A stretch of DNA of 64,000 bases from an uncultured Mycoplasmatota bacterium (GTDB lineage: Bacteria; Bacillota_I; Bacilli_A; RF39; UBA660): NCBI GenBank assembly GCA_900548725.1, contig URLV01000001.1, positions 3,591 to 67,590 on the forward strand, given 5' to 3'. How positions within the stretch are numbered: position 1 is the stretch's first letter; every line of letters starts with the position of its first letter. The notes under the pieces were generated by a model. The model ran no database searches. It had not been told where the DNA came from and worked only from the letters and a program-made list of their open reading frames with translations. Position numbers and translations under genes: made by a program. Below, piece after piece: positions 31,097-61,590 of the stretch.

Positions 31097-31222
31097 AACC
31101 AAACCTCCTAAGTAATTGATATATATAATACAAAAAAATACGTATTTTGTCAAATTCGAAATACGTACATTTATTCTTATCTAGAATTGTCATTTTTGTA
31201 TCGCAACACCTTCACTTTAATG

Positions 31223-31423
31223 TTAGTAGGCATAGCTTTCCATTCCTAATAATAATTTCTTTTTTAAACGTACTATAAAAGATTGTATATTTTTATAATT
31301 AGTTAACTTTAATACAACATCATATATACTTATATAATACTTTTTATCTTCTAATACAATATAAGTTCTAATACTTTCATCATGATGCATTTTATTTATT
31401 ATCTGTAATTTATTTTTCATCAA
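31223..31423 (-). CDS. small BRO-N-like (phage antirepressor N-terminal domain-like) protein, 66 aa
   Basis: The sequence ESIRTYIVLEDKKYYISIYDVVLKLTNYKN matches the core pattern of BRO-N/KilA-N-like DNA-binding domains (IR..v.dge.wF.a.Dva..L). The RBS is GGAGGG. Confidence 0.3.
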   Translation of the reverse strand: MMKNKLQIINKMHHDESIRTYIVLEDKKYYISIYDVVLKLTNYKNIQSFIVRLKKKLLLGMESYAY

Positions 31424-31439
31424 AACCCTCCATTATCAA

Positions 31440-31470
31440 TTGACAACTATATATAATAAATGTTATTATT
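31440..31470 (+). promoter_or_regulatory. sigma-A promoter TTGACA-N18-TATTAT driving the small RNA of repeat copy 1
   Basis: The hexamers are consensus-like. The same TTGACA/TATTAT pair sits at the equivalent position of copy 2. Confidence 0.5.
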
Positions 31471-31476
31471 TAATCA

Positions 31477-31558
31477 AGTAGAACGTCTACCCCCTGTAGG
31501 TTAGATATCTACCTTTGTTGGTCAGACATCCGTCCTAACTGAGTGGCGGATGTTTTTA
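31477..31558 (+). ncRNA. candidate small RNA (~80 nt) ending in an intrinsic terminator; antisense or convergent to the 24-aa peptide ORF (copy 1)
   Basis: The transcription start is inferred 7 nt after the -10. It has a 5' hairpin GTAGAacgTCTAC and a terminator CATCCGtcctaactgagtgGCGGATG followed by TTTTTATTTT. Confidence 0.45.
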
Positions 31559-31569
31559 TTTTAATTTAA

Positions 31570-31644
31570 TTATTCTTTATCTAAGAAGAGTAATATTAAA
31601 ATAACAATGATTCTATTCATAAATTTTTCTAAATTTTTGAACAC
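31570..31644 (-). CDS. 24-aa hydrophobic peptide (V/M)FKNLEKFMNRIIVILILLFLDKE, copy 1 (GTG start), candidate type I toxin
   Basis: The RBS is TAAGGTGGTGAtatt-GTG. The peptide is identical to copy 2 except for the start codon. Its 3' end converges on the sRNA terminator. Confidence 0.45.
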   Translation of the reverse strand: MFKNLEKFMNRIIVILILLFLDKE

Positions 31645-31811
31645 AATATCACCACCTTACTACTTTTACTCTTTATTAATTCGGTTAGTAAGGTAGACAT
31701 CAACCCAGACGTTCGATTTGTTATACTAATACAATATAATAATAAATTAAAGGCTTTCGGCAAAACTTATAAAAACTTACCAAAATATTACAAAAAATGA
31801 CAAATAAAAAA

Positions 31812-31840
31812 TTGAATAAAAATAACCTATATTATATAAT
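31812..31840 (+). promoter_or_regulatory. putative promoter TTGAAT-N17-TATAAT for the YfhO-like gene
   Basis: The hexamers have 17-nt spacing. RBS AGGTGA and the ATG at 31859 follow downstream. Confidence 0.35.
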
Positions 31841-31858
31841 TTTAATTAGGTGATACTT

Positions 31859-34411
31859 ATGAAAAACTTTTTAAAAAAATATGGATATTTAATAGCAGTA
31901 TTTATATTAGGAATATCAATAATATCTACAATATACATTTTACAAAAAGTTGCACCATTTGGTAGAAATTCACTTCTAACAATAGATTTCTTTCATCAGT
32001 ACGGACCCATGCTAGCAGAACTATACGACAGAATAAAAAAAGGGGCAAACATTATTTATAGTTTTAATACAGGATTAGGATTACCATATTTTAGAAACTT
32101 TTTTAATTACTTATCATCACCACTAAATATAATAATGTTTTTATTCAAAAGAAAAAATATTATAATGTCTTATTCAATAATAATAGGTTTAAAAAGTATA
32201 TTATCTTGTATAACATGTTCATACTATATACATAAAAAATTTAATACAAACAAATTATATATGATAGGAATATCACTTCTATACGGATATTCAGCATACT
32301 TTACAGCATATTATTGGAATATAATGTGGTTAGATGGAATGTATATTCTTCCTTTAATAACACTAGGTATAGAAAATATAATTAATAAAGATAATGGGGT
32401 TTTATACACACTATCTCTAACATTAATGTTGTTTACAAATTATTTTATAGGTTATATGACATGTATTTATTCATGTATATATTTCTTATCATATTTAATA
32501 ATAAAAACAAAAAAATTTAACATTAAAAATATATCAAAAAAATGTTTAAAATTTGCACTTTGTTCTTTAACTTCTGGTTTACTATTAGCATTTGAACTAA
32601 TACCAATGTATGAATCTTTAAAAAGTACAAATGCAACTATGGGGACTATTCCAACAGACCAATACTATGCATTTACTATAATTAACTTTTTCAAAAATCA
32701 TTTAACTGGAATAACAAAAACAGTATTTGCATCAGACATATCAAATGCTCCAAACGTATCATGTGGAATACTTTCTATAGGATTATATCTATTATTCTTA
32801 CTTAACAAAAAAATAAACATTAAAAGAAAAATAATATACACATTAATTCTTATATTCTTATTAACTTCATTTTATGTTGCTCCTTTAGATTATATATGGC
32901 ATGCATTCCATGTACCAAATGATTTGCCATACAGATACTCATTTATGTATAGTTTTATACTTATATTAATAAGTGCTTATTCACTCAAAACTATAAAAGA
33001 AATATCATTTATAAAAGTATTAATAACATATGTTATTTGTTTATTATTCATAACATTTGTATACCTAACAAAATATAACAATATAACATCAAATATGATA
33101 ACAATAAATTATTTATTAATATCAACTTATTTCTTAATCTATACTTTATATCATTTTTATCCAAAATTTAAAAACTTAAGTACAATATTATTTATAACAG
33201 TTTGTTCTATAGAATGTGTAATATCTGTAAATCATAATTGGGATATTTTACAATATATAGATGAATTTTATTCAACATACAATAACGTACATAATAGCAT
33301 AAATGAAATTAAAGAAAAAGATAATGAACTATTTTATAGAACAGAAAAAAATACAATACTAACACTTAATGATGGAGCATGGTATAACTATTACGGACAA
33401 AGTACATTTACATCAATGGCATATAATAGCCTAGCAGAATTAAATAATGATTTAGGACAACCAGGTAATAGAATCAATAGTTATTATTATAAACAAAATA
33501 CTCCAGTATACGATTTAATGTTTGATATAAAATATATGATTGGAAAAAATAATGACGATAAAAGATATGATCTAGAGCTAAATAAAAATAACACTTTAAC
33601 ATATAAATTTAATTACACAACAGGATTGATGTTTGGTGTAAATAAATCAATAAAAAAATGGACCAATAATTTTATTAATCCAATAGAATATCAAAATGAT
33701 TTTATAAATTATGGAACAAATATAGAGAATGTATTTCATAGATTAACACTCAACAACAAAGAAATAATATCAAAAGATAAAAAAGAAACAATAATAAAAT
33801 ATAATTACATAAACGAATATGACAATATATACTTATATTCAAATAATTCATCCATTAACTACATTATAATTAATGATAAAATATATTATAAAAATGATAT
33901 AAATATTAGTGATATTCAAATAAAATTAAATAAATCATTTAAAGAATGTAATATATATGATGAAGAATATGTTATAAATACAATATCAAATGATAGCAAT
34001 ATAGAAGTATATGTATCATATAAATCATATTTAAATGAAGAAATAGATATTTATACTATAGATAACAATAAATTTACAAAAGCCTATAACATACTAAATT
34101 CAAATAGAATAAACGTCACTGATTTCAAAGAAAATAACATAAAAGGAAACATTACTCTTTTAAATGATACTTCAATCTATACTTCAATACCATACGATAA
34201 AGGATGGAAAGTATATTCAAATAATAGAGAAATTAAAACTTATAAAATTAATGATAGTCTATTAGGATTTGATTTAAAAAAAGGAGAAAACAACATAGAA
34301 TTAAAATATATTCCTAACAATTTAGATATAGGTATATCTATAAGTATTACAACACTAATAATTACCATAACATATTTAGTAATCAAGAAAAAACAACAAA
34401 TAAAGGCTTAG
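31859..34411 (+). CDS. YfhO-family large polytopic membrane protein (putative glycosyl/glycolipid transferase-type)
   Basis: It has about 13 N-terminal TM segments, a large C-terminal extracytoplasmic domain and a final TM. Length is ~850 aa, typical of Firmicute YfhO. Confidence 0.5.
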   Translation: MKNFLKKYGYLIAVFILGISIISTIYILQKVAPFGRNSLLTIDFFHQYGPMLAELYDRIKKGANIIYSFNTGLGLPYFRNFFNYLSSPLNIIMFLFKRKNIIMSYSIIIGLKSILSCITCSYYIHKKFNTNKLYMIGISLLYGYSAYFTAYYWNIMWLDGMYILPLITLGIENIINKDNGVLYTLSLTLMLFTNYFIGYMTCIYSCIYFLSYLIIKTKKFNIKNISKKCLKFALCSLTSGLLLAFELIPMYESLKSTNATMGTIPTDQYYAFTIINFFKNHLTGITKTVFASDISNAPNVSCGILSIGLYLLFLLNKKINIKRKIIYTLILIFLLTSFYVAPLDYIWHAFHVPNDLPYRYSFMYSFILILISAYSLKTIKEISFIKVLITYVICLLFITFVYLTKYNNITSNMITINYLLISTYFLIYTLYHFYPKFKNLSTILFITVCSIECVISVNHNWDILQYIDEFYSTYNNVHNSINEIKEKDNELFYRTEKNTILTLNDGAWYNYYGQSTFTSMAYNSLAELNNDLGQPGNRINSYYYKQNTPVYDLMFDIKYMIGKNNDDKRYDLELNKNNTLTYKFNYTTGLMFGVNKSIKKWTNNFINPIEYQNDFINYGTNIENVFHRLTLNNKEIISKDKKETIIKYNYINEYDNIYLYSNNSSINYIIINDKIYYKNDINISDIQIKLNKSFKECNIYDEEYVINTISNDSNIEVYVSYKSYLNEEIDIYTIDNNKFTKAYNILNSNRINVTDFKENNIKGNITLLNDTSIYTSIPYDKGWKVYSNNREIKTYKINDSLLGFDLKKGENNIELKYIPNNLDIGISISITTLIITITYLVIKKKQQIKA

Positions 34412-34453
34412 TAAATTAAAACTAAACCTTTTTTTAAATACAATAATCATTTA

Positions 34454-35398
34454 TTAATCATCTAAATTAATATCTCTAATAAATAATTTTTTAACATTCT
34501 TTTTAGGCATCATTACATCAAAATCATTAACTGTACTAAAATTATATTCTAGTACTGCCCTATCTAATTTATCACCATCAATACACCAAGCTTTTTTAGG
34601 ATATTGTAAAAATTTGAAATTTATCTCATTAGTTTTATAAAATTCTATACCACTAATGTTATTAGGATCATGATCTATTAACAATCTTAAAGCTTTTATA
34701 ATACTTCTCCTACTAGGAAAATTACATAACAATACTTCAAATTGATTATCATCTAATTTAACATCTTTATAAAAATTATTTATACCAGCAATCCTATTAG
34801 CGTTACTAACCAATATAAAAGAATAATATCCACTTTTTTTAAGTCCATTAACTTCAAAATCTATATAATAAGATTTTATAGGTCTAAAATAATCTTTAAT
34901 ACCCTCTATTAAATAAGCAAAATAACCATATTTCTTTTTTAAATATCTAGGAGTATCATAAGCAATATTAATAAATTTACCTAATCCAGCAACATAAACA
35001 AATGGTCTTTCATTTACAATACATATATCAATTTTTTTTACTTCACCTTCAAGAAGTAATTTTAAATTTGCTTCAAAGTTTTTTCCATACCCAAACATTG
35101 TACCAACATCATTACATGTTCCAACTGGAATGTTTGCAATTAAAAGTCTATTAGTTCTTAAATAGTTTCCAGTAACTACTTCATTAAATGTTCCATCTCC
35201 ACCAACACTAACAACTAAATCAACATATTCCAAATGACTTACTATTTCTTTAGCATGTCCTGCATATTGTGTTGGAACAATCTTTAAATTATATCCATAC
35301 TCTGGAAATATTTTTTTTGCACTTTTTAAATTCTCCTCATTCATTGTATGTCCGCTATTGGGATTATATATCATAACACATTGTTTCAAATAGATCAC
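34454..35398 (-). CDS. diacylglycerol/lipid kinase catalytic-domain protein (YegS/DagK/BmrU family); GTG start
   Basis: The motifs are MIYNPNSG...VVSVGGDGTFNEVVTG (DAGK_cat GGDG). Confidence 0.7.
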   Translation of the reverse strand: MIYLKQCVMIYNPNSGHTMNEENLKSAKKIFPEYGYNLKIVPTQYAGHAKEIVSHLEYVDLVVSVGGDGTFNEVVTGNYLRTNRLLIANIPVGTCNDVGTMFGYGKNFEANLKLLLEGEVKKIDICIVNERPFVYVAGLGKFINIAYDTPRYLKKKYGYFAYLIEGIKDYFRPIKSYYIDFEVNGLKKSGYYSFILVSNANRIAGINNFYKDVKLDDNQFEVLLCNFPSRRSIIKALRLLIDHDPNNISGIEFYKTNEINFKFLQYPKKAWCIDGDKLDRAVLEYNFSTVNDFDVMMPKKNVKKLFIRDINLDD

Positions 35399-35461
35399 CC
35401 TTTCACAATTAGTATAATATAAAAAATAAAATTTTACAAAACAAAAAGGACAAAAGTGTCC

Positions 35462-35854
35462 TTAATCATTGATTTCAATGACAGTTTTATTATCTTGTTT
35501 TTCTTCTTTAGGAACAGTTATACATAATGTACCATTATTAAATTTAGCATTAATTAAACTAGCATCAACATCTCCAACATAGAATGATCTTGAATATTCA
35601 CCATAACTTCTTTCTTTTCTAATATAGTTTTTATCGTTATCTTCTTCAGTTTCTTCTTTTTTTGCAGTTATAGTTAAATAACCATTTTTACATTCTACAT
35701 TAATGTCTTTCTTATCAAATCCAGGTACATCAACTTCAATATTACATTTACCATCTTTTTCATAAATATCACATTTCATAACTGATCCATCCTTTGAACT
35801 AACAAAATCATCAAAAAAATCATCTAAATAATACTTTCTAGGTATTAAACTCAT
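35462..35854 (-). CDS. Hsp20/alpha-crystallin family small heat-shock protein
   Basis: The C-terminal alpha-crystallin domain reads ...GYLTITAKKEE...FYVGDVDASLINAKFNNGTLCITVPK. Confidence 0.8.
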   Translation of the reverse strand: MSLIPRKYYLDDFFDDFVSSKDGSVMKCDIYEKDGKCNIEVDVPGFDKKDINVECKNGYLTITAKKEETEEDNDKNYIRKERSYGEYSRSFYVGDVDASLINAKFNNGTLCITVPKEEKQDNKTVIEIND

Positions 35855-35894
35855 ATATCTCTCTTCCTTTCACAATTATAATTATACCACTATT

Positions 35895-35921
35895 TTAGCA
35901 CTTGTCAATACTATGTGCTAA
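35895..35921. promoter_or_regulatory. CIRCE-like HrcA operator TTAGCACTT-N9-ATGTGCTAA upstream of hsp20
   Basis: It is close to the CIRCE consensus TTAGCACTC-N9-GAGTGCTAA. It is nearly identical to the 27-mer upstream of htpG. Confidence 0.55.
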
Positions 35922-35950
35922 TTTTTTTTAAAAAATTTAAAAAAAGTACC

Positions 35951-36793
35951 CTATATTAGTATACCTACAACTTCAATAAATATACCAACGAGTACTCCAA
36001 TTAAATATAAAGTTAAACAAATACATAAATTTTCCTTAATATTTTTATTAGATTTAAATAAAACTAACAAAGCAACTCCACTACCAGCTAATAAACCAGC
36101 CATACATGTTCCTAAATTAATTGCTCCCTTTAAAAACATTTCAGTTAAAATAACACTTGCACCACAATTAGGTATTAAACCAACTAATGAACCCAAAAAA
36201 GGTCCAAACAAAGTATCTTTCATAAATATTTTACTAATTAAATCATTACCACAATATAAAAATATAACATTTAATATAAAACTAACACCAATAATAAATA
36301 TTAATATATTAAAAGTGTGTTTTAAACTAGATTTAACAATACCATGATCACAATGACAATGTTCTTCCTCACATATATGATAATCATATTTATTTTTATT
36401 ATTCTTTCTAATAACTAAATCTATAACAAAACCAAATAAAATACCAGAAATAACTTTTATTAAAATTACTATTAATATAGTTTTAAAATTAACATTTTGA
36501 CTTAACATAATAGGAAGCATTTCATCACTGGTAGATAGATAAATAGAAAACAAAGTTCCTAAAGAAATAACACGTGTTATATATAAATTAGTTGCAACAA
36601 CAGAAAAACCACATTGTGGTATTACTCCAAGTAAACTACCAATTATAGGTCCAACTTTACCAGATTTACTTATAACATTTTTAGTTTTATTATTTAATTT
36701 ATGTTCTAAAAGTTCCAATAACAAAAAAGTTATAAAAAGAAATGGTAATATTTTCAAAGCATCAACTAATGTATCAATTATTATATCTTTCAT
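35951..36793 (-). CDS. polytopic membrane permease with central His/Cys-rich loop (putative metal transporter)
   Basis: There are 8-10 TM segments with repeated GVIPQCG / GLIPNCGASV motifs and a loop HICEEEHCHCDHG. The specific family is uncertain. Confidence 0.35.
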   Translation of the reverse strand: MKDIIIDTLVDALKILPFLFITFLLLELLEHKLNNKTKNVISKSGKVGPIIGSLLGVIPQCGFSVVATNLYITRVISLGTLFSIYLSTSDEMLPIMLSQNVNFKTILIVILIKVISGILFGFVIDLVIRKNNKNKYDYHICEEEHCHCDHGIVKSSLKHTFNILIFIIGVSFILNVIFLYCGNDLISKIFMKDTLFGPFLGSLVGLIPNCGASVILTEMFLKGAINLGTCMAGLLAGSGVALLVLFKSNKNIKENLCICLTLYLIGVLVGIFIEVVGILI

Positions 36794-36855
36794 AAAAGTC
36801 CTCCAAACAAATGAGATTATATATTAATATAAAAGAAAAGTCAATTTATTTTAAA

Positions 36856-38439
36856 TTAACTCTCTATTCCAAATCTTTCTATATATTCTTCATAACTAAT
36901 TTCTTTATCTCTTATTGTACCATCTTTTTTTATTTCTATAAGTCTATTACAAACAGTATCAATTATCTCTTCATCAAACGTACTTATTACTAATGAACTT
37001 TTATATCTTTCTAAGCCTTCATTAAGTGCAGTTATACTTTCAATATCTAAATGATTAGTAGGTTCATCTAATAACAAAACATTTCCATGATTTAACATAA
37101 CTTTTGCAAACATACATCTAACTTTTTCTCCACCAGATAATACTTTTACATCTTTAAAAACTTCTTCTCCACTAAATAACATTCTACCTAAGAATCCTCT
37201 AACAAAAGTATCATCAGTACTATCAGTAAATTGTCTTAACCAATCCATCATATTCATACTATTTTGAAAATATTTATCATGATTTTTTTCATAATAAGAC
37301 ATTTTGACTGTTGAACCTAATTTAACACTACCAGAGTCAGGTTCTAATTCCCCACTAATTATATTAAGAAGAGTAGTTTTAGCAATCTCATTATTACCAA
37401 TAAGTGCTATCTTATCACCTTTTCTAATAACAAACTTCACATTATGTAAAATATCTTTATAGCAAACATTATCCACAATAACAACATCATTACCTAATTC
37501 TCTTTCAATATCAAAATTAATATATGGATATTTTCTACTACTAGGTTTAATTTCATCTAATTTTATTTTTTCTAACGCTTTCTTTCTACTAGTAGCTTGT
37601 TTACTTTTACTAGCATTAGCACTAAATCTTCTAATAAAATCCTCTAATTCTTTTATCTTATCTTCTTTTTTCTTATTAGAATCTTTCATTTGTTGTTGTA
37701 TTAATTGACTAGATTTATACCAAAAATCATAATTACCTACAAACATAGTAATCTTTTCATAATCTATATCAACCATATGAGTACAAACTTTATTTAAAAA
37801 AGCTCTATCATGGCTAACAACTAACACAGTATTTTTAAAGTTAATTAAAAATTCTTCTAGCCACATCTTACTTTTTACATCTAAACCATTTGTAGGTTCA
37901 TCTAAAAGAAGAACATCAGGATCACCAAATAAAGCACTAGCAAGTAATACTTTAACTTTATCACTATCTTTTAATTCTTGCATTTCAAGATAAAATAAAT
38001 CTTTACTAACTCCTAAACCATTTAATAATTTTTCGGCATCACTTTCAGCATCCCAACCATTCATGTTTAAAAATTTATCTTCTAACTCTGCAACTCTAAT
38101 TCCATCCTCATCTGTAAAATCAGTTTTACTATATATTTCTTCCTTTTCCTTTATAATTGAATATAACTCCTTATTTCCCATAATAACAGTATCAATTACT
38201 TTATAATTATCATATAAATTATGATTTTGAACCAAAGTAGATATACGTTCACCTTTACCAAGTATTATTTCTCCATTTGTAGGATCTATTCTTCCATCCA
38301 ATATTTTTAAAAAAGTACTTTTACCAGCTCCATTAGCGCCAATTATTCCATAACAATTGTCTTTTAAAAACTCTAAATTTACATTTTTAAATAAAGTCTT
38401 AGTAGTAAATCTTAATTCTAAATCTATAACCTTTAACAT
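36856..38439 (-). CDS. ABC-F family ATPase (two tandem ABC domains, no TM); start at ATG with RBS AGAGGTGA
   Basis: It has Walker A GANGAGKST and GNNEIAKTT, and LSGGEK signatures in both halves. Confidence 0.8.
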   Translation of the reverse strand: MLKVIDLELRFTTKTLFKNVNLEFLKDNCYGIIGANGAGKSTFLKILDGRIDPTNGEIILGKGERISTLVQNHNLYDNYKVIDTVIMGNKELYSIIKEKEEIYSKTDFTDEDGIRVAELEDKFLNMNGWDAESDAEKLLNGLGVSKDLFYLEMQELKDSDKVKVLLASALFGDPDVLLLDEPTNGLDVKSKMWLEEFLINFKNTVLVVSHDRAFLNKVCTHMVDIDYEKITMFVGNYDFWYKSSQLIQQQMKDSNKKKEDKIKELEDFIRRFSANASKSKQATSRKKALEKIKLDEIKPSSRKYPYINFDIERELGNDVVIVDNVCYKDILHNVKFVIRKGDKIALIGNNEIAKTTLLNIISGELEPDSGSVKLGSTVKMSYYEKNHDKYFQNSMNMMDWLRQFTDSTDDTFVRGFLGRMLFSGEEVFKDVKVLSGGEKVRCMFAKVMLNHGNVLLLDEPTNHLDIESITALNEGLERYKSSLVISTFDEEIIDTVCNRLIEIKKDGTIRDKEISYEEYIERFGIES

Positions 38440-38561
38440 AATTTCACCTCTAAAAACGATTATATTATATTTTACCACAGTGTGAAACTATTTTCTCATA
38501 TTTTATTAAAAAAGTTTCACACCACAAAAAAACAAACATCAAAAAAAATAGACCATAAAGT

Positions 38562-40433
38562 CTATTTTGAAATCAAATCACATATTAAATTACTTATCTC
38601 AGTAGGATTATTTATTCCAAGTCCTTCTATAAGTCTTGCTTCACTATATAAAACTTTACTATATTTCTTTAATTCTTCTTTATCAGTTTCATATAATGAT
38701 TTTAATTTGTTAGCAATAGGATGATTTTCATTAATTTCTAGTACTATTTCTGCATTAACACTTTCATCTCCTGGCATAGAATTAATTACTTTTTGCATTT
38801 CAACAGAAACATTACCTTTACTTGTTAAACATACAGGATGATTTTTTAACTTACCAGTAAATCTAACACCACTAATACCAATAGTATCTTTCATTAAAGT
38901 TAATAAATCTTTATTATCAGTATTTAATTTTTCAATATCTTCCTTTTTATCTTCCAAATCTAAATCAGCATCACTAACATTTTTAAAGCTTTTACCATCA
39001 TATTCTCTTAATGCTTGTAATGTAAATTCATCTACATAATCAGTTAAATATAATATTTCATAATCTTTATCTTTAACTTGTTCTATTTGAGGAAGTAAAT
39101 CTATCTTATCAACACTTTCACCACTAGCATAATAAATATCTTTTTGGTCTTCTTTCATATTAGAAACATATTCTTTTAAAGTAATTAGATCTTTAGTCTT
39201 ACTAGAATTAAACATTATTAAATCTTGTAACTTATCTTTATCCATTCCATAATTATTATAAATACCAAATTTAATATTAGTTCCAAATACCTTAAACATC
39301 TTTACATAATTTTCTCTGTCATTTTCTAACATATCTTTAAATTCTTTAATTATCTTATTTTCAATATTTTTAGCAATTAAATTAACTGCTTTTGTTTTTT
39401 GAAGCATCTCACGGCTTATATTTAAAGATACGTCCTCAGTATCAATTACACCTTTTATAAAACTAAAATAATCAGGTAATAATTCACTACATTTATCCAT
39501 AATTAATACACCATTAGAATATAAACTTAATCCTTTTTCATATTCTTTAGTATAAAAATCATAAGGTGCATGGCTTGGTACAAACAATAATCCTTTATAA
39601 CTAACAGCACCTTCTACACTAGTACTTATAACTTTTAAAGGTTTCTCATAATCATAATAAGTATCAGTATAATAATGTTCATATTCTTCGTCACTAACAT
39701 CTTTTTTATTCTTTTTCCAAATAGGAATCATACTATTAATAGTTTCAATTTCTTTAACGGTTTCATATTCATCACTATCATCTTTTTTATGACTATGACT
39801 TACTTCCATCTTAATTGGATATCTAATATAATCACTATATTTTTTAATCAAATCTTTTAATTTGAACTCAGTTAAATAATCATCATAATTATCATCATCT
39901 GTATTATCTTTAATATGTAAAATTATATCAGTACCAACACTACTTTTATCACATTTTTCTAACGTATAACCCTCTAATCCCTTAGAATTCCATCTATAAG
40001 CATCCTCACTATCATAAGATTTACTTATAACAGTAATTTCATCTGCTACCATAAATGCACTATAAAAACCTACACCAAATTGACCTATTATATCAATATC
40101 TTTATTCTTTACTTCATTCATTTCTTTAAAAGCTAAAGAACCACTTTTAGCAATAGTACCTAAATTATTCTCTAAGTCACTTTCACTCATACCACAACCA
40201 TTATCACTAACAGTTATAGTTCTTAAATCTTTATCAAAATTAATATTAATTTCTAAATCATCTTTATTAACTTTAATAGATTTATCAGTTAAACTTTTAT
40301 AATATAATTTATCTATTGCATCACTAGCATTACTAATTAATTCTCTTAAAAATATATCTTTATTAGTATATATAGAATTAATCATTAAATCTAACAACCT
40401 TTTTGATTCACTTTTAAATTCTCTTTTTTTCAT
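38562..40433 (-). CDS. htpG: molecular chaperone HtpG (Hsp90)
   Basis: It has the GHKL ATPase N-terminus (FLRELISNASDA, GQFGVGFYSAFMVAD). Length is 623 aa. Confidence 0.9.
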   Translation of the reverse strand: MKKREFKSESKRLLDLMINSIYTNKDIFLRELISNASDAIDKLYYKSLTDKSIKVNKDDLEININFDKDLRTITVSDNGCGMSESDLENNLGTIAKSGSLAFKEMNEVKNKDIDIIGQFGVGFYSAFMVADEITVISKSYDSEDAYRWNSKGLEGYTLEKCDKSSVGTDIILHIKDNTDDDNYDDYLTEFKLKDLIKKYSDYIRYPIKMEVSHSHKKDDSDEYETVKEIETINSMIPIWKKNKKDVSDEEYEHYYTDTYYDYEKPLKVISTSVEGAVSYKGLLFVPSHAPYDFYTKEYEKGLSLYSNGVLIMDKCSELLPDYFSFIKGVIDTEDVSLNISREMLQKTKAVNLIAKNIENKIIKEFKDMLENDRENYVKMFKVFGTNIKFGIYNNYGMDKDKLQDLIMFNSSKTKDLITLKEYVSNMKEDQKDIYYASGESVDKIDLLPQIEQVKDKDYEILYLTDYVDEFTLQALREYDGKSFKNVSDADLDLEDKKEDIEKLNTDNKDLLTLMKDTIGISGVRFTGKLKNHPVCLTSKGNVSVEMQKVINSMPGDESVNAEIVLEINENHPIANKLKSLYETDKEELKKYSKVLYSEARLIEGLGINNPTEISNLICDLISK

Positions 40434-40470
40434 TCATAACATCTCCCATAACTAAGTTATATAATATATT

Positions 40471-40497
40471 TTAGCACTTGTCAATAGTTTGTGCTAA
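40471..40497. promoter_or_regulatory. CIRCE-like HrcA operator TTAGCACTT-N9-TTGTGCTAA upstream of htpG
   Basis: It is the same 27-mer (25/27) as upstream of hsp20. A TATAAT-like hexamer is adjacent. Confidence 0.55.
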
Positions 40498-40530
40498 TTA
40501 ATTTTAAGAAAAAAAGTAGTTAACAAACTA

Positions 40531-41070
40531 CTAATAATTTTCTTTCTTTATTTCAAAATAACTTTGTGGGTGACTACATACAGGACAAACTTCTGGAGCA
40601 TTTTTTCCTATACAAATATGTCCACAATTTCTACATTGCCAAATTTTATCCCCATCTTTAGAGAATACTAATTCATTATCAACATTACTTAATAATGCTC
40701 TATATCTTTCTTCATGATGCTTTTCAATTTCAGCTACACCTTCAAATAAATTAGCAATTCTATCAAATCCTTCTTCACGTGCAGTTTCTGCAAACTCTTT
40801 ATACATATCAGTCCATTCAAAATTTTCTCCATTTGCAGCATCTAATAAATTTTCACTAGTACTAGGAACTTCTCCACCATGCAATTCTTTAAACCACATT
40901 TTAGCATGTTCCTTTTCGTTATCAGCAGTTTCTAAAAATATTTCTGCTATTTGTTCAAACCCATCTTTTTTAGCTTTACTAGCATAATAAGTATATTTGT
41001 TTCTTGCTTGACTTTCTCCTGCAAAAGCAGCCATTAAATTAGCTTCTGTTTTACTTCCTTTTAATTCCAT
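40531..41070 (-). CDS. rbr: rubrerythrin
   Basis: It has an N-terminal ferritin-like diiron domain (E..EH motifs) and a C-terminal rubredoxin-like CRNCGH...CPVCSHP. Confidence 0.85.
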
Positions 41071-41074
41071 TTTT

Positions 41075-41443
41075 TCATTTCTCCTTCTCTAAACATTCTT
41101 TACATTTTCCAATAAAACTTAAATCGTAATTCATTACTTCATAATCTTTTATATTAGGTAATTTTTTTATATAATCATACATAACATCATCTATTTTACC
41201 ACAAATACTACATACAACATGAGCATGAATTATATTTTTATCAAATCTATCAACACCATCACTCATTTTTAATCTAATAATTTTATTCTCATCAACCAAA
41301 TTATTTAGATTTCTATATACAGTACCTAAACTAATATTAGGAATTACTTTTCTTGCTTCCAAATAAACTCCATTTGCATTTAGATGATTAAAACTATTAT
41401 TTATTATATTAAGTATTACTTCTTTTTGTTTAGTATTTCTCAA
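41075..41443 (-). CDS. Fur-family transcriptional regulator (PerR-like by context); TTG start
   Basis: It has a winged HTH and C-terminal [13 protein letters not shown]...CKEC. It lies 4 bp upstream of rbr. Its RBS is AGAGGTGA. Confidence 0.75.
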
Positions 41444-41454
41444 ACAATCACCTC

Positions 41455-41477
41455 TTATTAGTAATGATTACTAATAA
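41455..41477. promoter_or_regulatory. perfect 23-bp palindrome TTATTAGTAAT-g-ATTACTAATAA, candidate Fur/PerR box
   Basis: It lies 12 bp upstream of the fur-family start, abutting the RBS. It resembles the Per box 7-1-7 TTATAATnATTATAA extended to 11-1-11. Confidence 0.45.
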
Positions 41478-41672
41478 AACTATACTACATTTTAAACTAC
41501 AATGCAATAAAAAAAGACAATATTTGTCACAATTTGATAAGTTTTTAGAAGTTTTGTCGAAAGTCTTTAAATTAAAATTAATTTATATTAATATAACTAA
41601 TCGAACGTCTGGGTTGATGTCTACCTTACTAACTGAATTATTAAAGAGTATAAGCAGTAAGGTGGTGATATT

Positions 41673-41747
41673 ATGTTCAAAAATTTAGAAAAATTTATGA
41701 ATAGAATCATTGTTATTTTAATATTACTCTTCTTAGATAAAGAATAA
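41673..41747 (+). CDS. 24-aa hydrophobic peptide MFKNLEKFMNRIIVILILLFLDKE, copy 2 (ATG start), candidate type I toxin
   Basis: The RBS is GTAAGGTGGTGAtatt-ATG, close to the Firmicute consensus AAGGAGGTGA. The TAA stop lies 10 nt before the shared terminator stem. Confidence 0.45.
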   Translation: MFKNLEKFMNRIIVILILLFLDKE

Positions 41748-41757
41748 TTAAATTAAA

Positions 41758-41840
41758 ATAAAAACATCCGCCACTCAGTTAGGACGGATTTCTACTCTCA
41801 AGGTAGACAATCTAACCTACAGGGGGTAGACGTTCTACTT
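41758..41840 (-). ncRNA. candidate small RNA copy 2 (convergent to the peptide ORF), with minus-strand intrinsic terminator
   Basis: The minus-strand promoter TTGACA-N17-TATTAT lies at 41847-41875. The terminator stem is CATCCGCC..GGACGGAT followed by TTTTTATTTT on the minus strand. Confidence 0.45.
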
Positions 41841-41846
41841 AATCAA

Positions 41847-41875
41847 ATAATAGCATTTGATATTAGTTTTGTCAA
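41847..41875 (-). promoter_or_regulatory. sigma-A promoter TTGACA-N17-TATTAT for sRNA copy 2
   Basis: It sits at the same position and carries the same hexamers as the copy-1 promoter. Confidence 0.5.
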
Positions 41876-42026
41876 ATGCTTTTTTATTATGATTATGTAT
41901 GTTTATTTTCCATAAATTCTAATTTTACATTTTTTTACATCAATTTAACTATGAATAATACGTTTTTTTGTTGATAATGTTATACTATAAATAGAATAAC
42001 TTTGTAAATATTATAGGAGAATTTAT

Positions 42027-44960: not shown

Positions 44961-45127
44961 AAAAAGAGTATTTAAAAACAAAAATGAATACAGATAATAG
45001 TAAAACCTTAAAATATTTAAAAGCAGTGTATAAAGTTGTAGATAATAACAGTGATATGCGTAATAGCAAAACGATTAAAAGAATGTTAAAATATGATAAA
45101 AATAAGAATAAAGATTTAAATGATTAA
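44957..45127 (+). CDS. small lysine-rich protein (56 aa), start overlaps stop of the 977-aa gene (ATGA)
   Basis: I translated it by hand: MKKEYLKTKMNTDNSKTLKYLKAVYKVVDNNSDMRNSKTIKRMLKYDKNKNKDLND. The arrangement suggests translational coupling. Confidence 0.3.
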   Translation: MKKEYLKTKMNTDNSKTLKYLKAVYKVVDNNSDMRNSKTIKRMLKYDKNKNKDLND

Positions 45128-53261: not shown

Positions 53262-53335
53262 TGGAGGACCCAGTCGGATTTGAACCAACGATCAGGGAGT
53301 TGCAGTCCCATGCCTTACCACTTGGCTATGGATCC
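53262..53335 (-). tRNA. tRNA-Cys (GCA), CCA encoded
   Basis: The hand-folded cloverleaf has acceptor GGATCCA/TGGGTCC with one GU, D-arm AGCCAAGTGGTAAGGC, anticodon loop CTGCAAC, T-arm GGTTCAAATCC and a 3' TCCA. Confidence 0.8.
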
Positions 53336-61233: not shown

Positions 61234-61590
61234 TGGTGGAGCCGGTGAGAATTGAACTCACGTCCAAAATACTTTCTTATCCAACATCTACAAGTTTAGT
61301 TAGAACAAATTATTCATTAATAAAAAAGAGTCTAACAATCCTATTTATTAATATAGTTTATAAATATTCATCAATTATCCTAAACAAAACAATTGATATA
61401 TCTTATATATATGAACCCTAATCAAATCTATAAGCAAATAAGATTAAAGTGCTTTATTGCCAAATTAGGCAAATGCTAAAGCGTTATTATTAAATGTTTT
61501 GTCAGTTAATTTAAACTGGTTGCTAATTAAGGGATAGCACACCACTTGCAGTTAGATAGAAACATATCCTGTCGAAACCATTACGACCCC
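61234..61590 (-). ncRNA. ssrA: tmRNA (ssrA), tag (A)DKTFNNNALAFA
   Basis: The 5' end is GGGGTCGTAATGGTTTCGACAGGA. The 3' tRNA-like end is GGACGTGAGTTCAATTCTCACCGGCTCCACCA. The tag reading frame is UAACU-GAC AAA ACA UUU AAU AAU AAC GCU UUA GCA UUU GCC UAA, which parallels the B. subtilis layout. Confidence 0.85.

What the first reader, a model, noticed from the sequence alone, without database searches (positions are those of the whole stretch)
31440..41875. Duplicated ~300-bp module with its own promoter, a terminated small RNA and a convergent 24-aa hydrophobic peptide ORF: a type I toxin-antitoxin-like architecture, present as two inverted copies
Two copies, about 31440-31735 and 41586-41875, are roughly 93% identical and in inverse orientation. 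Each has a consensus-like sigma-A promoter (TTGACA-N17/18-TATTAT) at the same outer position. Each promoter points inward to an ~80-nt RNA that starts with the hairpin GTAGAacgTCTAC and ends at a strong intrinsic terminator (CATCCG..CGGATG + T-run). On the opposite strand a 24-codon ORF, (M/V)FKNLEKFMNRIIVILILLFLDKE, sits behind a near-perfect SD (AAGGTGGTGA), and its stop lies a few nt from the same terminator stem, so it converges on the small RNA. The peptide sequence is identical in both copies while the start codon differs (ATG versus GTG). Nucleotide differences between copies cluster in a 14-nt patch of the sRNA just upstream of the terminator, and the SD, ORF and terminator stem are preserved. 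The element also has short terminal inverted repeats (gaacgtct / agacgttc). This layout of a small membrane peptide and a convergent sRNA sharing a bidirectional terminator is that of type I TA loci such as fst/RNAII, bsrG/SR4 and txpA/RatA. It could equally be a small mobile repetitive element carrying such a cassette. I cannot match it to a known family from memory.
Basis: seen in the sequence. Interest (0 to 1): 0.85.

Follow-up and report, generated by a model that had tools for sequence, protein, structure and literature searches.

The report
Candidate type I toxin–antitoxin repeat
A 380-bp unit present twice in this window encodes a conserved 24-residue peptide and a convergent small antisense RNA; it looks like a new sequence family of an already well-known kind of bacterial toxin–antitoxin module, found so far only in uncultured gut bacteria, and toxicity is untested.

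Summary
The window has two inverted copies, 91-92% identical, of a ~380-bp unit (31434-31800 on +, 41883-41518 on -). Each has a near-consensus extended -10 promoter driving an ~86-nt terminated RNA. On the other strand each has a strong ribosome-binding site and a 24-codon ORF.

The same unit occurs in 10 strain-level gut metagenome contigs and in 5 GTDB species of uncultured Bacilli. It sits in several intergenic loci and in tandem arrays of 1-3 units (period 382).

The ORF is intact in all 39 copies. A diverged copy found through the RNA alone keeps length and frame, with substitutions 7/1/13 by codon position. The RNA keeps promoter boxes, a 5' hairpin with a C-rich loop, and a terminator. 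Compensatory changes support the hairpin.

The peptide mRNA probably reads through the RNA gene, so its 3'UTR is fully antisense to the RNA. Its ribosome-binding site is predicted to be sequestered, and its 5'UTR pairs with its 3'UTR. This is the bsrG/SR4 layout.

There is no Rfam, Pfam or NCBIfam match. My best reading is a new family of type I toxin–antitoxin. Toxicity and transcripts are untested, and the hydrophobic stretch is short. The shared bidirectional terminator and the terminal inverted repeats are not supported.

The parts
31440..31469 (+). Copy 1: promoter of the small RNA (TTGACA, N18, TG-extended TATTAT)
   Evidence: It scores 11/12 with the TG extension. The -35 and -10 boxes are invariant in all copies and in the diverged relatives, while the spacer varies (pairwise difference 0.29).
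31476..31562 (+). Copy 1: ~86-nt small RNA (putative antitoxin). It has a 5' hairpin at 31478-31512 with a C-rich loop, a variable single-stranded linker at about 31513-31523, and a terminator hairpin at 31524-31555 followed by a U-run.
   Evidence: MFE -26.1 kcal/mol, z -3.2. CM score 110.6 bits. 95.5% of cells pair, against 39-52% in slid controls, and one UA<->CG compensatory pair occurs in 5 sequences. The ends are inferred from the promoter and terminator, not measured.
31570..31644 (-). Copy 1: 24-codon ORF (GTG start), VFKNLEKFMNRIIVILILLFLDKE. Putative toxin.
   Evidence: The ORF is intact in all 39 copies. Against the diverged L015 copy, substitutions by codon position are 7/1/13 (p=0.006).
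31649..31658 (-). Copy 1: Shine-Dalgarno AAGGTGGTGA, 4 nt from the start codon
   Evidence: Sequence reading. It is conserved, with GAGGTGGTAA, AAGGGGTGA and GTAGGTGGTAA as variants in the relatives.
31686..31714 (-). Copy 1: mRNA 5'UTR elements. The anti-SD CUACCUUACUA is at 31686-31696. A same-sense partial copy of the RNA's 5' hairpin (GAACGUCUGGGUUGAUGUCUACC) is at 31692-31714, and it is complementary to the mRNA's own 3'UTR.
   Evidence: The SD is predicted to be paired (P unpaired <= 0.14) in 9 variants. In the anti-SD/SD helix 94.6% of cells pair. In the 5'-3' helix 98.5% of 22 pairs pair, and 3 pairs have changes on both sides.
31720..31772 (-). Copy 1: region holding the peptide-mRNA promoter. 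The start site is unresolved. Candidates are TTATAA-N17-TAATTT, TTGCCG-N16-TATTAT, and the invariant TATAAC at 31720-31725.
   Evidence: Conserved blocks GTTTTGTCGAAAG, CTTTAA and TAGTATAAC appear in all copies. The scan hit is at 31763-31736. Only weak consensus matches were found.
41847..41875 (-). Copy 2: promoter of the small RNA (TTGACA, N17, TG-extended TATTAT)
   Evidence: 11/12, with TG.
41755..41840 (-). Copy 2: ~86-nt small RNA
   Evidence: CM score 102.5 bits. MFE -24.1 kcal/mol, z -3.5.
41673..41747 (+). Copy 2: 24-codon ORF (ATG start), MFKNLEKFMNRIIVILILLFLDKE
41659..41668 (+). Copy 2: Shine-Dalgarno AAGGTGGTGA
   Evidence: Sequence reading and the fold.
41603..41631 (+). Copy 2: mRNA 5'UTR repeat (41603-41625) and anti-SD (41621-41631)
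41545..41573 (+). Copy 2: candidate peptide-mRNA promoter TTAGAA-N17-TAAATT. In the relatives the -35 is TTGACA or TTGACG.
   Evidence: This is inferred from conservation of position only.
41852..41890 (+). Copy 2: intrinsic terminator of the peptide mRNA. It is an 11-bp palindrome (GCATTTGA..TCAAATGC) plus a T-run, and it overlaps the small RNA's -35 and -10 region.
   Evidence: Terminator scan: 1 found against 0.0 expected. It forms in the MFE of the 305-nt mRNA. The same palindrome is in array-internal units and in L017 and L026, but not in copy 1.

Best explanation
Each ~380-bp unit is a two-gene cassette of the type I toxin-antitoxin kind.

One strand carries a weakly promoted mRNA of about 300 nt. 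It encodes a 24-residue peptide with an amphipathic N-terminal half and a short hydrophobic core (RIIVILILLFL). The other strand carries a strongly promoted, terminated RNA of about 86 nt.

The hairpin behind the ORF is not a terminator on the mRNA strand. The mRNA therefore runs on through the whole RNA gene, and in most copies it ends at its own terminator embedded in the RNA's promoter. As a result the small RNA is perfectly complementary to about 86 nt of the mRNA's 3'UTR, just downstream of the stop codon.

The mRNA appears to be built to translate poorly. Its ribosome-binding site is held in an 11-bp hairpin with an upstream anti-SD. Its 5'UTR also pairs over about 22 bp with the 3'UTR segment that is antisense to the RNA's 5' hairpin.

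The likely action is as follows. The small RNA contacts the 3'UTR through its conserved terminator loop or its single-stranded linker, and forms a long duplex. This displaces the 5'-3' helix and leaves the SD locked. The duplex is then cut by a double-strand RNase such as RNase III, so the peptide is not made. If the RNA is lost, the peptide is made and harms the cell, presumably at the membrane.

Shown here: the anatomy, its conservation, coding-type selection on the ORF, structural conservation of the RNA, and predicted mRNA helices that survive sequence change.

Inferred: both transcripts and their ends, the duplex-dependent decay, and above all toxicity and rescue.
For: 1. The anatomy is the same in both window copies.

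2. The ORF codes for a peptide.
- All 39 copies (2 in the window, 37 in 22 loci) are open and 24 codons long. The one exception has a frameshift in the last codon.
- ATG and GTG interchange at the start, and TTA/TTG synonymous changes occur.
- L015 and L021 were found through the RNA terminator only. They differ from the standard ORF at 21 of 72 nt without any indel. By codon position the differences are 7/1/13 (chi-square p=0.006), with 6 synonymous and 9 mostly conservative codon changes.
- Other frames carry stops, or lack an SD and a start codon.

3. The RNA is a gene.
- The -35 box and the TG-extended -10 box are invariant while the spacer varies by 0.29. The terminator is invariant within the clade.
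- L025 and L026 were found through the peptide only, and both carry the convergent RNA with the same promoter type. L026 has a re-built 12-bp 5' stem and a covarying terminator stem. The C-rich apical loop is kept in both, and the terminator loop CCUAACUGAGU is identical in L026 and differs by one base in L025 (CCUAACUGAAU).
- UCUA/UAGA changes to UCCA/UGGA as a compensatory pair in 5 sequences. 95.5% of cells pair, against 39-52% in slid controls.
- Folds are 3.2-3.5 sd below shuffles.

4. mRNA design.
- The mRNA has its own terminator overlapping the RNA promoter.
- The SD is paired with P(unpaired) <= 0.14 in 9 variants, and 94.6% of cells pair in the anti-SD helix.
- In the 5'-3' helix, 98.5% of cells pair over 22 pairs, against 24-43% when slid. 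Three pairs change on both sides, and 0 of 500 shuffles reach the observed score.

5. Population behaviour is typical of type I loci.
- There are 1-6 copies per genome at different intergenic sites, tandem arrays of 1-3 units, and presence/absence differences between strains.
- The only incomplete copies are RNA-only. L022 is a clean deletion of the peptide gene at the syntenic parB locus.

6. The dimensions fit the class definition: mRNA 150-400 nt, peptide 20-60 aa, antisense RNA 60-200 nt on the 3' side in Gram-positive families (T1TAdb, PMC8594479).

7. The 5'-3' helix, the SD hairpin and the terminator-loop contact match what was measured for bsrG/SR4 (PMC3834814).
Against: - No transcript data exist, and neither toxicity nor rescue has been tested.
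- The hydrophobic run is only 7-10 residues. Position 19 is L, N or R in different variants. That is short for a transmembrane helix, although toxins of 18-26 residues are known from my own recall (Ibs, ShoB).
- The peptide-mRNA promoter is only a weak consensus match, and its start site is unresolved.
- In silico, blocking the 3'UTR does not change SD accessibility. A translational switch is therefore not supported, and only duplex-dependent decay remains as the proposed mechanism.
- One species (CAKOJI) shows an RNA-only copy and no peptide copy in what was retrieved. The RNA may have a function of its own.
- The covariation evidence rests on about five independent lineages.
- The 5'UTR/3'UTR co-variation could also come from gene conversion between the two same-sense copies.
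- Most loci were found through the RNA, so 'no toxin-only copies' is partly an ascertainment effect.
Confidence: 0.62

Rival explanations
1. The gene pair is real but is not a toxin-antitoxin system. The 24-residue peptide is a harmless small protein, for example a membrane-associated modulator, and the cis-antisense RNA tunes its expression.
For: The ORF and RNA conservation is the same as under the best explanation. The hydrophobic core is short and is interrupted by N or R in variants. There is no match to any toxin family in Pfam or NCBIfam.
Against: - Several features are typical of selfish type I loci and not of ordinary small-protein genes: multi-copy number, tandem amplification, strain-variable presence and location at edges of variable islands.
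- The mRNA is heavily locked, with SD sequestration plus a 5'-3' helix.
- The antisense promoter is far stronger than the sense promoter.
- The decayed copies kept the RNA and lost the ORF.
Confidence: 0.2
2. The functional gene is the small RNA, a family of trans-acting regulatory RNAs with a C-rich loop. Such loops in Firmicute RNAs pair with ribosome-binding sites. On this view the variable linker acts as a seed, and the peptide ORF is secondary or incidental.
For: RNA-only copies keep an intact promoter and terminator (L022, L023). The RNA's loops are its most conserved parts. The linker is single-stranded and differs between paralogues.
Against: - The ORF shows coding-type constraint, and its SD and start codon are kept.
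- No trans duplex was found between the RNA and the mRNA 5' region better than shuffled controls (about 1 sd).
- Cognate linker-to-5'UTR pairing is no better than non-cognate pairing (-11.5 vs -11.2 kcal/mol).
- 39 of 41 RNA copies are physically coupled to the ORF.
Confidence: 0.08
3. The unit is a small non-autonomous mobile or repetitive element, like a MITE, BOX or Correia element. It carries promoters and spreads by transposition, and the ORF and RNA are by-products.
For: The unit is dispersed at about 8 different intergenic sites and occurs in tandem arrays. It contains an internal inverted repeat.
Against: - The inverted repeats are internal. Conserved promoters lie outside them on both sides.
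- No target-site duplication or clean empty site is visible at the perR junction.
- There is no transposase nearby.
- There are no copies in viral contigs.
- Sequence constraint follows codon phase and RNA helices, not element termini.
Confidence: 0.04
4. The promoter plus terminated RNA is a 5' leader or attenuator for the downstream gene (yfhO, perR, rnjA, lexA, rny), and the ORF is a leader peptide.
For: In most loci the RNA points towards the next gene.
Against: - In 5 of the 7 loci with resolved flanks (8 distinct sites overall; the essC-side site is unresolved) the unit lies between divergent genes. That orientation then follows from geometry alone.
- The downstream genes are unrelated and have their own promoters. 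One example is the perR promoter with its operator palindrome at 41455-41510.
- The units form tandem arrays.
- The ORF is on the opposite strand from the RNA.
- There is no Rfam riboswitch or leader hit.
Confidence: 0.02

Closest known systems
bsrG/SR4 of Bacillus subtilis (also bsrE/SR5, bsrH/as-bsrH)
   Same: - The genes are convergent, and the antisense RNA is complementary to the 3' part of the toxin mRNA.
- The antitoxin promoter is stronger than the toxin promoter.
- The toxin mRNA has a long helix between its 5' end and its 3' region, and its SD sits in a stem.
- The first contact is through the antitoxin's terminator loop.
- Decay of the duplex is RNase III-dependent (PMC3834814).

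Here a 22-bp 5'-3' helix, an 11-bp SD hairpin and a conserved terminator loop are predicted.
   Different: - There is no sequence similarity: no Rfam hit and no Pfam or NCBIfam hit.
- The peptide has 24 residues against 38, with a much shorter hydrophobic stretch.
- The RNA is ~86 nt against ~180 nt, and it does not overlap the ORF.
- The units lie in tandem arrays in housekeeping intergenic regions rather than on a prophage (the prophage location is my own recall).
- The SD-tightening switch shown for SR4 is not reproduced in silico.
txpA/RatA and yonT/SR6 of B. subtilis
   Same: These are Gram-positive type I loci in which the antisense RNA lies on the 3' side and acts through duplex-dependent mRNA decay (PMC3531473, listed; T1TAdb).
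   Different: In those systems the RNA overlaps the ORF's 3' end, and the toxins are 58-59 residues. No homology was detected.
fst/RNAII (par) of Enterococcus faecalis plasmid pAD1
   Same: It has convergent transcription of a small-peptide mRNA and an antisense RNA with a terminator between them. The RNA does not overlap the ORF (T1TAdb).
   Different: - par uses a bidirectional terminator and direct repeats, so that the 5' ends of the two RNAs are complementary across the start region (own knowledge).
- Here the hairpin is a terminator on one strand only.
- Here the repeats are inverted, so the RNA and the 5'UTR are same-sense and cannot pair.
- There is no Fst-family Pfam hit.
SprA1/SprA1AS (PepA1) of Staphylococcus aureus
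   Same: It encodes a small membrane peptide, the antisense RNA is on the 3' side, and the ORF is not overlapped.
   Different: SprA1AS acts in trans through its 5' domain on the start region (own knowledge). No such pairing beyond chance was found here.
Ibs/Sib and Ldr/Rdl of Escherichia coli
   Same: They encode very short hydrophobic peptides (Ibs has 18-19 residues). They have several copies per genome, some in tandem, and variable RNA segments make each antitoxin specific for its own toxin (own knowledge). Tandem repeats were used as a search criterion for such loci.
   Different: These are Gram-negative families. The RNA lies inside the mRNA and covers the ORF or the 5'UTR. No homology was detected.
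hok/Sok and aapA1/IsoA1
   Same: A long-distance 5'-3' pairing keeps the full-length toxin mRNA inert (own knowledge; PMC6733600 and PMC9841398 are listed).
   Different: In those systems the antisense RNA binds the 5' region, and activation needs 3' trimming. Here the RNA binds the 3' arm of the helix itself.

Membership tests
Type I toxin-antitoxin systems (the class) | Small protein of about 20-60 residues encoded on a short mRNA (150-400 nt) | tested here: met
   The ORF has 24 codons. The predicted mRNA is ~305 nt from the candidate promoter to the terminator. The class dimensions are from T1TAdb. The mRNA ends are predicted, not measured.
Type I toxin-antitoxin systems (the class) | The ORF is a real coding sequence | tested here: met
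   All 39 copies are open. Substitutions by codon position are 7/1/13 against an independently found relative. The SD and the start codon (ATG or GTG) are kept.
Type I toxin-antitoxin systems (the class) | The peptide is hydrophobic or membrane-active | tested here: inconclusive
   The hydrophobic run IIVILILLFL has 10 residues. It falls to 7 when position 19 is N or R. The N-terminal half is amphipathic by inspection. The peptide is too short for the structure and homology tools.
Type I toxin-antitoxin systems (the class) | Expression of the peptide is toxic | not testable with these tools
   This needs inducible expression in a host.
Type I toxin-antitoxin systems (the class) | Antisense RNA of 60-200 nt with its own promoter and terminator | tested here: met
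   The promoter scores 11/12 with a TG extension, the terminator is present, and the RNA is ~86 nt. Conservation and covariation support it. Transcription itself was not observed.
Type I toxin-antitoxin systems (the class) | Base-pairing between the RNA and the toxin mRNA | tested here: inconclusive
   The complementarity is perfect if the mRNA extends through the RNA gene. That is inferred from two things: there is no U-run after the hairpin on that strand, and a downstream terminator lies at 41852-41880. No trans pairing with the 5' region was found.
Type I toxin-antitoxin systems (the class) | The RNA neutralises the toxin | not testable with these tools
   This needs co-expression or deletion experiments. 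The only indirect hint is that the incomplete copies are RNA-only.
BsrG/SR4-type (Gram-positive, 3'-overlapping) families | Sequence or covariance-model similarity to SR4, RatA, SR5, SR6 or their toxins | tested here: not met
   Rfam finds no hit at gathering score over the window, and no relevant hit at E<=10 over 31300-31900. Pfam and NCBIfam give 0 families for both peptide variants.
BsrG/SR4-type (Gram-positive, 3'-overlapping) families | The antisense RNA overlaps the 3' end of the ORF | tested here: not met
   The RNA's U-run ends at ~31562 and the ORF stop codon occupies 31570-31572.
BsrG/SR4-type (Gram-positive, 3'-overlapping) families | The toxin mRNA has a 5'-3' helix and its SD in a stem | tested here: met
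   These are predicted helices. 98.5% and 94.6% of cells pair, the first with 3 doubly changed pairs. No structure probing was done.
Fst/RNAII (par) | Fst-type toxin sequence | tested here: not met
   No Pfam or NCBIfam hit at E<=10.
Fst/RNAII (par) | Direct repeats that make the 5' regions of the two RNAs complementary, and a bidirectional terminator | tested here: not met
   The repeats are inverted, so the two RNAs are same-sense there. The hairpin has a U-run on one strand only.
MITE-like mobile element | Inverted repeats at the element's termini, flanked by target-site duplications | tested here: not met
   Homology between copies extends ~45 nt beyond one repeat and ~90 nt beyond the other. 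No duplication is seen at the perR junction, but no clean empty site was available.

The most novel reading that the evidence does not exclude
The hypervariable single-stranded linker of the RNA, together with its complement in the mRNA 3'UTR, may be a paralogue-specific address. It would make each unit of a tandem array an orthogonal toxin-antitoxin pair, while everything else in the unit is kept nearly identical by selection or by gene conversion. The conserved scaffold, with its C-rich loop and invariant terminator loop, may have a second role shared by the RNA-only copies. If so, this would be a naturally modular, re-addressable antisense device. The family would extend to a sister system with a 34-residue peptide, seen at L023 6100-6445.
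Probability: 0.2. Interest if true: 0.6.

Novelty: new member of a known kind. Interest (0 to 1): 0.45.

Why it matters
Type I toxin-antitoxin families are hard to find by homology. According to PMC12390103 (abstract listed), they have so far been reported only from Proteobacteria, Firmicutes and Tenericutes, and that paper itself proposes a cyanobacterial locus. This would add a family from an uncultured, very AT-rich gut Bacilli lineage.

It has one of the shortest candidate toxins (24 residues). The cassette is compact: the toxin mRNA's terminator is built into the antitoxin's promoter. It also has natural tandem arrays whose units differ almost only in a 10-16-nt RNA segment.

Three uses follow. 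It gives a testable case for how paralogous antisense pairs avoid cross-talk. It gives small parts for RNA-based control devices. It gives an annotation for a repeat that sits at the edges of strain-variable islands in these genomes. It does not change the general picture of how such systems work.

Tried and rejected
1. Known RNA families. Rfam gave only tmRNA and tRNA at gathering score over the whole window. At E<=10 over 31300-31900 it gave only chance hits.

2. Known protein families. Pfam and NCBIfam gave nothing for either peptide variant. The neighbouring 66/111-aa and 977-aa ORFs also have no significant family.

4. Literature string search for the peptide sequence: 0 papers.

5. Viral contigs: 0 hits for the terminator motif. 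JGI metagenomes: 0 hits for the RNA 5' hairpin motif. A degenerate peptide pattern then gave 2 loci.

6. Trans pairing of the RNA with the mRNA 5'UTR or start region. Duplex energies were about 1 sd from shuffles.

7. Co-evolution of the linker with its own 5'UTR. Cognate pairs gave -11.5 and non-cognate pairs -11.2 kcal/mol.

8. A switch in which RNA binding to the 3'UTR closes the SD. The SD is already paired with or without the 3'UTR blocked.

9. It is disfavoured by the T->C variants.

10. A shared bidirectional terminator. There is no U-run on the mRNA strand.

11. A LexA (Cheo) box in the GAACGTCT motif, considered because L025 and L026 lie next to lexA and recA. By inspection it does not fit GAAC-N4-GTTC, and I did not pursue it.

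12. Inversion of the 10-kb segment between the two inverted copies. The same orientation relative to the flanks is seen wherever flanks are shared.

13. The antisense-frame ORF (29 aa, 31607-31696 +). It has no SD, and its substitution pattern would be 1/7/13, which is atypical for coding sequence.

Full report
**What is in the window**

The repeat finder gives arms 31524-31799 / 41518-41793 (276 nt, 92% complementary) and 31453-31506 / 41810-41863 (54 nt, 91%), separated only by a short divergent patch. Three sub-motifs of 24-29 nt occur exactly twice each in the 64 kb, with none expected in shuffles.

Each copy has a TTGACA box, a 17-18-nt spacer and a TG-extended TATTAT box, at 31440-31469 (+) and 41875-41847 (-). 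Each promoter scores 11 of 12.

About 7 nt downstream of each promoter begins an RNA of about 86 nt. It ends in an 11-13-bp hairpin with a U-run.

On the other strand each copy has AAGGTGGTGA, 4 nt, a start codon and 23 further codons. The ORFs are at 31570-31644 (-, GTG) and 41673-41747 (+, ATG). The translation is the same in both: (M/V)FKNLEKFMNRIIVILILLFLDKE.

Rfam recognises nothing here, either at gathering score or at E<=10.

**Where the sequence comes from and how the unit behaves in relatives**

The rubrerythrin gene between the copies is found, identical, on many human-gut metagenome contigs. Ten of these (L001-L010) carry the same 10-kb core, perR-rbr-htpG-abcF-arsP-hsp20-dagK-yfhO.

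In those strains the unit is present at the yfhO end as one, two or three head-to-tail copies. Tandem Repeats Finder gives period 382, 2.9 copies and 94% matches in L005. This sets the true unit length at about 380 bp. At the perR end the unit is present in some strains and absent in others. The DNA outside both ends differs between strains.

A scan of one genome per GTDB species with an 18-mer from the terminator found 12 real loci in five species. All five are 'uncultured Bacilli bacterium' MAGs from Hadza gut samples, with 1-6 copies per genome. Two further hits in cyanobacteria are what chance predicts for an 18-mer.

The loci are ordinary intergenic regions. They lie next to yfhO, perR, parB, an ezrA-like gene, rnjA and a type VII secretion (essC) locus. 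The two metagenome loci lie next to lexA and between recA and rny. Five of the seven loci with resolved flanks (eight distinct sites overall; the essC-side site is unresolved) lie between divergent genes. No transposase is nearby, and viral contigs have no copy.

**Is the ORF a gene?**

All 37 copies in the 22 loci and both window copies are open, and each sits next to an RNA copy. One copy (L020) has a frameshift in the last codon.

Within the main clade the start codon alternates between ATG and GTG. Leu21 alternates between TTA and TTG. The amino-acid changes are FM->LL and V->F.

The most useful comparison is with L015 and L021, because they were retrieved through the RNA terminator and so were not selected for the ORF. 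Their ORF is MFKNLKQLINRIIIILILNILNKD. It has the same length and frame and no indel. The 21 nucleotide differences are distributed 7/1/13 over codon positions 1, 2 and 3 (chi-square p=0.006). Six codons change synonymously. The flanking untranslated parts do carry indels.

The two sense-strand alternative frames contain stops. One antisense frame is open, but it has no ribosome-binding site and would have an atypical 1/7/13 pattern.

I conclude that the peptide is translated and is under purifying selection.

Its hydrophobic core is short. It has 10 residues, and only 7 in the variants where position 19 is N or R. Membrane insertion is plausible but not established. Pfam and NCBIfam have no match.

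**Is the RNA a gene?**

Across all copies the -35 box, the TG-extended -10 box and the terminator are invariant or nearly so. The promoter spacer differs by 0.29 per site.

Two loci found through a degenerate peptide pattern (L025, L026) were not selected for the RNA. Both carry the convergent RNA with the same promoter type.

In L026 the 5' hairpin is rebuilt as a 12-bp stem, and the terminator stem has changed on both sides (GGCAUCGGCC/GGCUGAUGUC). The C-rich apical loop (CCCCCUG) is kept in both loci, and the terminator loop (CCUAACUGAGU) is identical in L026 and differs by one base in L025 (CCUAACUGAAU).

Of the 24 distinct RNAs, 21 fold into the same three-part shape: a long 5' hairpin, a single-stranded linker and a terminator. 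The two window RNAs fold 3.2 and 3.5 sd better than shuffles.

On a 16-sequence alignment, 95.5% of cells pair, against 39-52% when partners are slid. One pair switches UA to CG in five sequences. The long hairpin is therefore the better model.

A covariance model built from these sequences finds only the two copies in the window.

**How the two genes relate**

The hairpin behind the ORF has its U-run only on the RNA's strand. On the peptide strand it is followed by the variable patch. It is therefore not a bidirectional terminator.

In copy 2, in array-internal units, and in L017 and L026, the peptide strand has its own terminator farther on. It is an 11-bp palindrome plus a T-run at 41852-41890, and it is made of the RNA's -35 box and the sequence just before its -10 box.

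The predicted mRNA is about 305 nt. Its last ~150 nt cover the whole RNA gene, so the RNA is perfectly complementary to the 3'UTR but does not reach the ORF.

Copy 1 and the other units that are first in an array lack this terminator. There the mRNA would run on into a small ORF of unknown function, which is 66 aa here and 111 aa elsewhere.

The promoter of the peptide mRNA is uncertain. A positionally conserved TTNNAA-N17/18-TAWWTT and an invariant TATAAC are the candidates.

**The mRNA is built to be silent**

In nine variants the ribosome-binding site is predicted to be paired, with mean probability of being unpaired at most 0.14. Its partner is the upstream CUACCUUACUA. On a 24-sequence alignment that 11-bp helix has 94.6% of cells paired. 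All changes are one-sided and keep the pairs. Slid controls give 28-67%.

One arm is in the 5'UTR (GAACGUCU..GGUUGAUGUCUACC). The other is the 3'UTR segment antisense to the RNA's 5' hairpin.

For this helix 98.5% of cells pair, against 24-43% when slid. Three pairs change on both sides, including UA->CG in six sequences. None of 500 column shuffles reaches the observed score.

The two helices share five nucleotides, so they compete in part.

The same design was determined experimentally for bsrG mRNA and its antitoxin SR4 in B. subtilis. There, nt 1-35 pair with nt 232-262, the SD lies in a stem, SR4 binds the 3' part starting from its terminator loop, and RNase III degrades the duplex (PMC3834814).

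I tested whether blocking the 3'UTR changes SD accessibility in silico. It does not. I therefore propose duplex-dependent decay, not a translational switch, as the main action. Both are inferences.

**The variable linker**

The 10-16 nt between the 5' hairpin and the terminator fall into about six classes with indels and mosaic structure. They differ by 0.345 per site within the main clade. Third codon positions of the adjacent ORF differ by 0.038, and the terminator by 0.000.

The same class occupies the same array position in different strains and species.

The linker does not pair better with its own 5'UTR than with others. The RNA as a whole shows no trans duplex with the 5' region beyond chance.

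Because the RNA is cis-antisense, any linker is automatically matched in its own mRNA. The linker could therefore serve as a paralogue-specific nucleation site, as is known for Sib/Ibs (own knowledge). Alternatively the rest of the unit may be homogenised by gene conversion. This is unresolved.

**Comparison and membership**

The dimensions fit the class definition used by T1TAdb: mRNA 150-400 nt, peptide 20-60 aa, antisense RNA 60-200 nt, on the 3' side in Gram-positive families.

Several traits are typical of chromosomal type I loci. These are the multi-copy number, the tandem arrays, the strain-variable presence, and the decay pattern. The two incomplete copies are RNA-only, and L022 is a clean deletion of the peptide gene at the parB locus that is intact in L015 and L021.

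The unit is not a member of any described family:
- No covariance model or profile matches it.
- The par features (direct repeats, bidirectional terminator) were tested and are not met.
- Unlike the BsrG and TxpA families, the RNA does not overlap the ORF.

Functionally it most resembles bsrG/SR4.

The rival readings are a harmless small protein with an antisense regulator, a trans-acting RNA family, a MITE-like repeat, or a leader for downstream genes. I rate them at 0.20, 0.08, 0.04 and 0.02, for the reasons given in their entries.

**Verdict**

This is a real, conserved, repeated two-gene cassette. It is best explained as a new sequence family of type I toxin-antitoxin in uncultured gut Bacilli (confidence about 0.6).

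Its parts are well defined in silico. Both transcripts, the toxicity and the rescue remain to be shown. It is a solid and useful find, but it belongs to a known kind.

Noticed in passing
L023 6100-6445 (MAG CAKOOU010000019; not in the window): The covariance model gave a 34-bit hit to a second, distant small RNA. It has a TTGACA-N17-TAGACT promoter, a 5' hairpin AAGUAG..CUACC, the linker CCAUUGUUGGUAAGCACU and a terminator. It converges on a 34-aa hydrophobic ORF, MMIMSTKLFIIRVIDRLIVIIILSLIFILLRKGV, preceded by SD GAAGGGGTG. Its ..DRLIVIIIL.. core resembles ..NRIIVILIL.. of the window peptide. By eye the linker is complementary to AGUGCUUGCCCAACUAUU just 5' of that SD. This may be a sister family with a full-length transmembrane toxin that acts at the 5' end.
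   Followed up: partly
window 41455-41510 (- strand): The perR-rbr operon has its own promoter (TTGCAT-N17-TATAGT), followed by a perfect 7-1-7 palindrome TTAGTAATCATTACTAA. This is a likely PerR/Fur-type operator and suggests autoregulation. It is retained in strains that lack the adjacent repeat unit.
   Followed up: partly
window ~31200-31430 and 41900-45000; L001-L012 flanks: The 10-kb core between the two copies is syntenic in all 10 strains examined. The DNA just outside each copy is strain-variable. Depending on the strain it holds a 977-aa ORF with no Pfam domain, a 518-aa or 158-aa ORF, a MerR/TrwB-like block, or a type VII secretion island with essC, a YukD-like gene and WXG100-like genes. 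The repeat units therefore mark the edges of variable islands.
   Followed up: partly
window 31223-31423 (- strand): A 66-aa ORF (MMKNKLQIINKMHHDES...) starts immediately after the small RNA's promoter on the peptide strand. It would be co-transcribed with the copy-1 peptide mRNA, which lacks a terminator. It is a truncated form of a 111-aa ORF in other strains (L012 5462-5797). It has no significant Pfam or NCBIfam match.
   Followed up: partly
window 31513-31523 and the equivalent patch in copy 2 (about 41793-41804): The RNA linker differs about nine times more between copies than synonymous sites of the adjacent ORF (0.345 vs 0.038). It looks mosaic between classes. The cause could be diversifying selection, a mutational hot spot, or gene conversion of everything else. 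It is unknown which.
   Followed up: partly
window 41801-41888 (+ strand): The strand opposite the copy-2 RNA, which is the 3' end of the peptide mRNA, itself scores 24 bits against the RNA model. It too consists of a long hairpin, a spacer and a terminator. The two transcripts end in mirror-image architectures.
   Followed up: no
window 61234-61590 (-) and 53262-53335 (-): There is a tmRNA (129.5 bits, tag peptide DKTFNNNALAFA) and a tRNA-Cys(GCA). These are ordinary genes and are unrelated to the finding.
   Followed up: no
L025 12600-13614 and L026 4700-6300: The two most diverged units lie directly next to lexA and between recA and rny. Some type I toxins are SOS-regulated. By inspection the conserved GAACGTCT motif does not fit the Firmicute LexA box GAAC-N4-GTTC.
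   Followed up: partly
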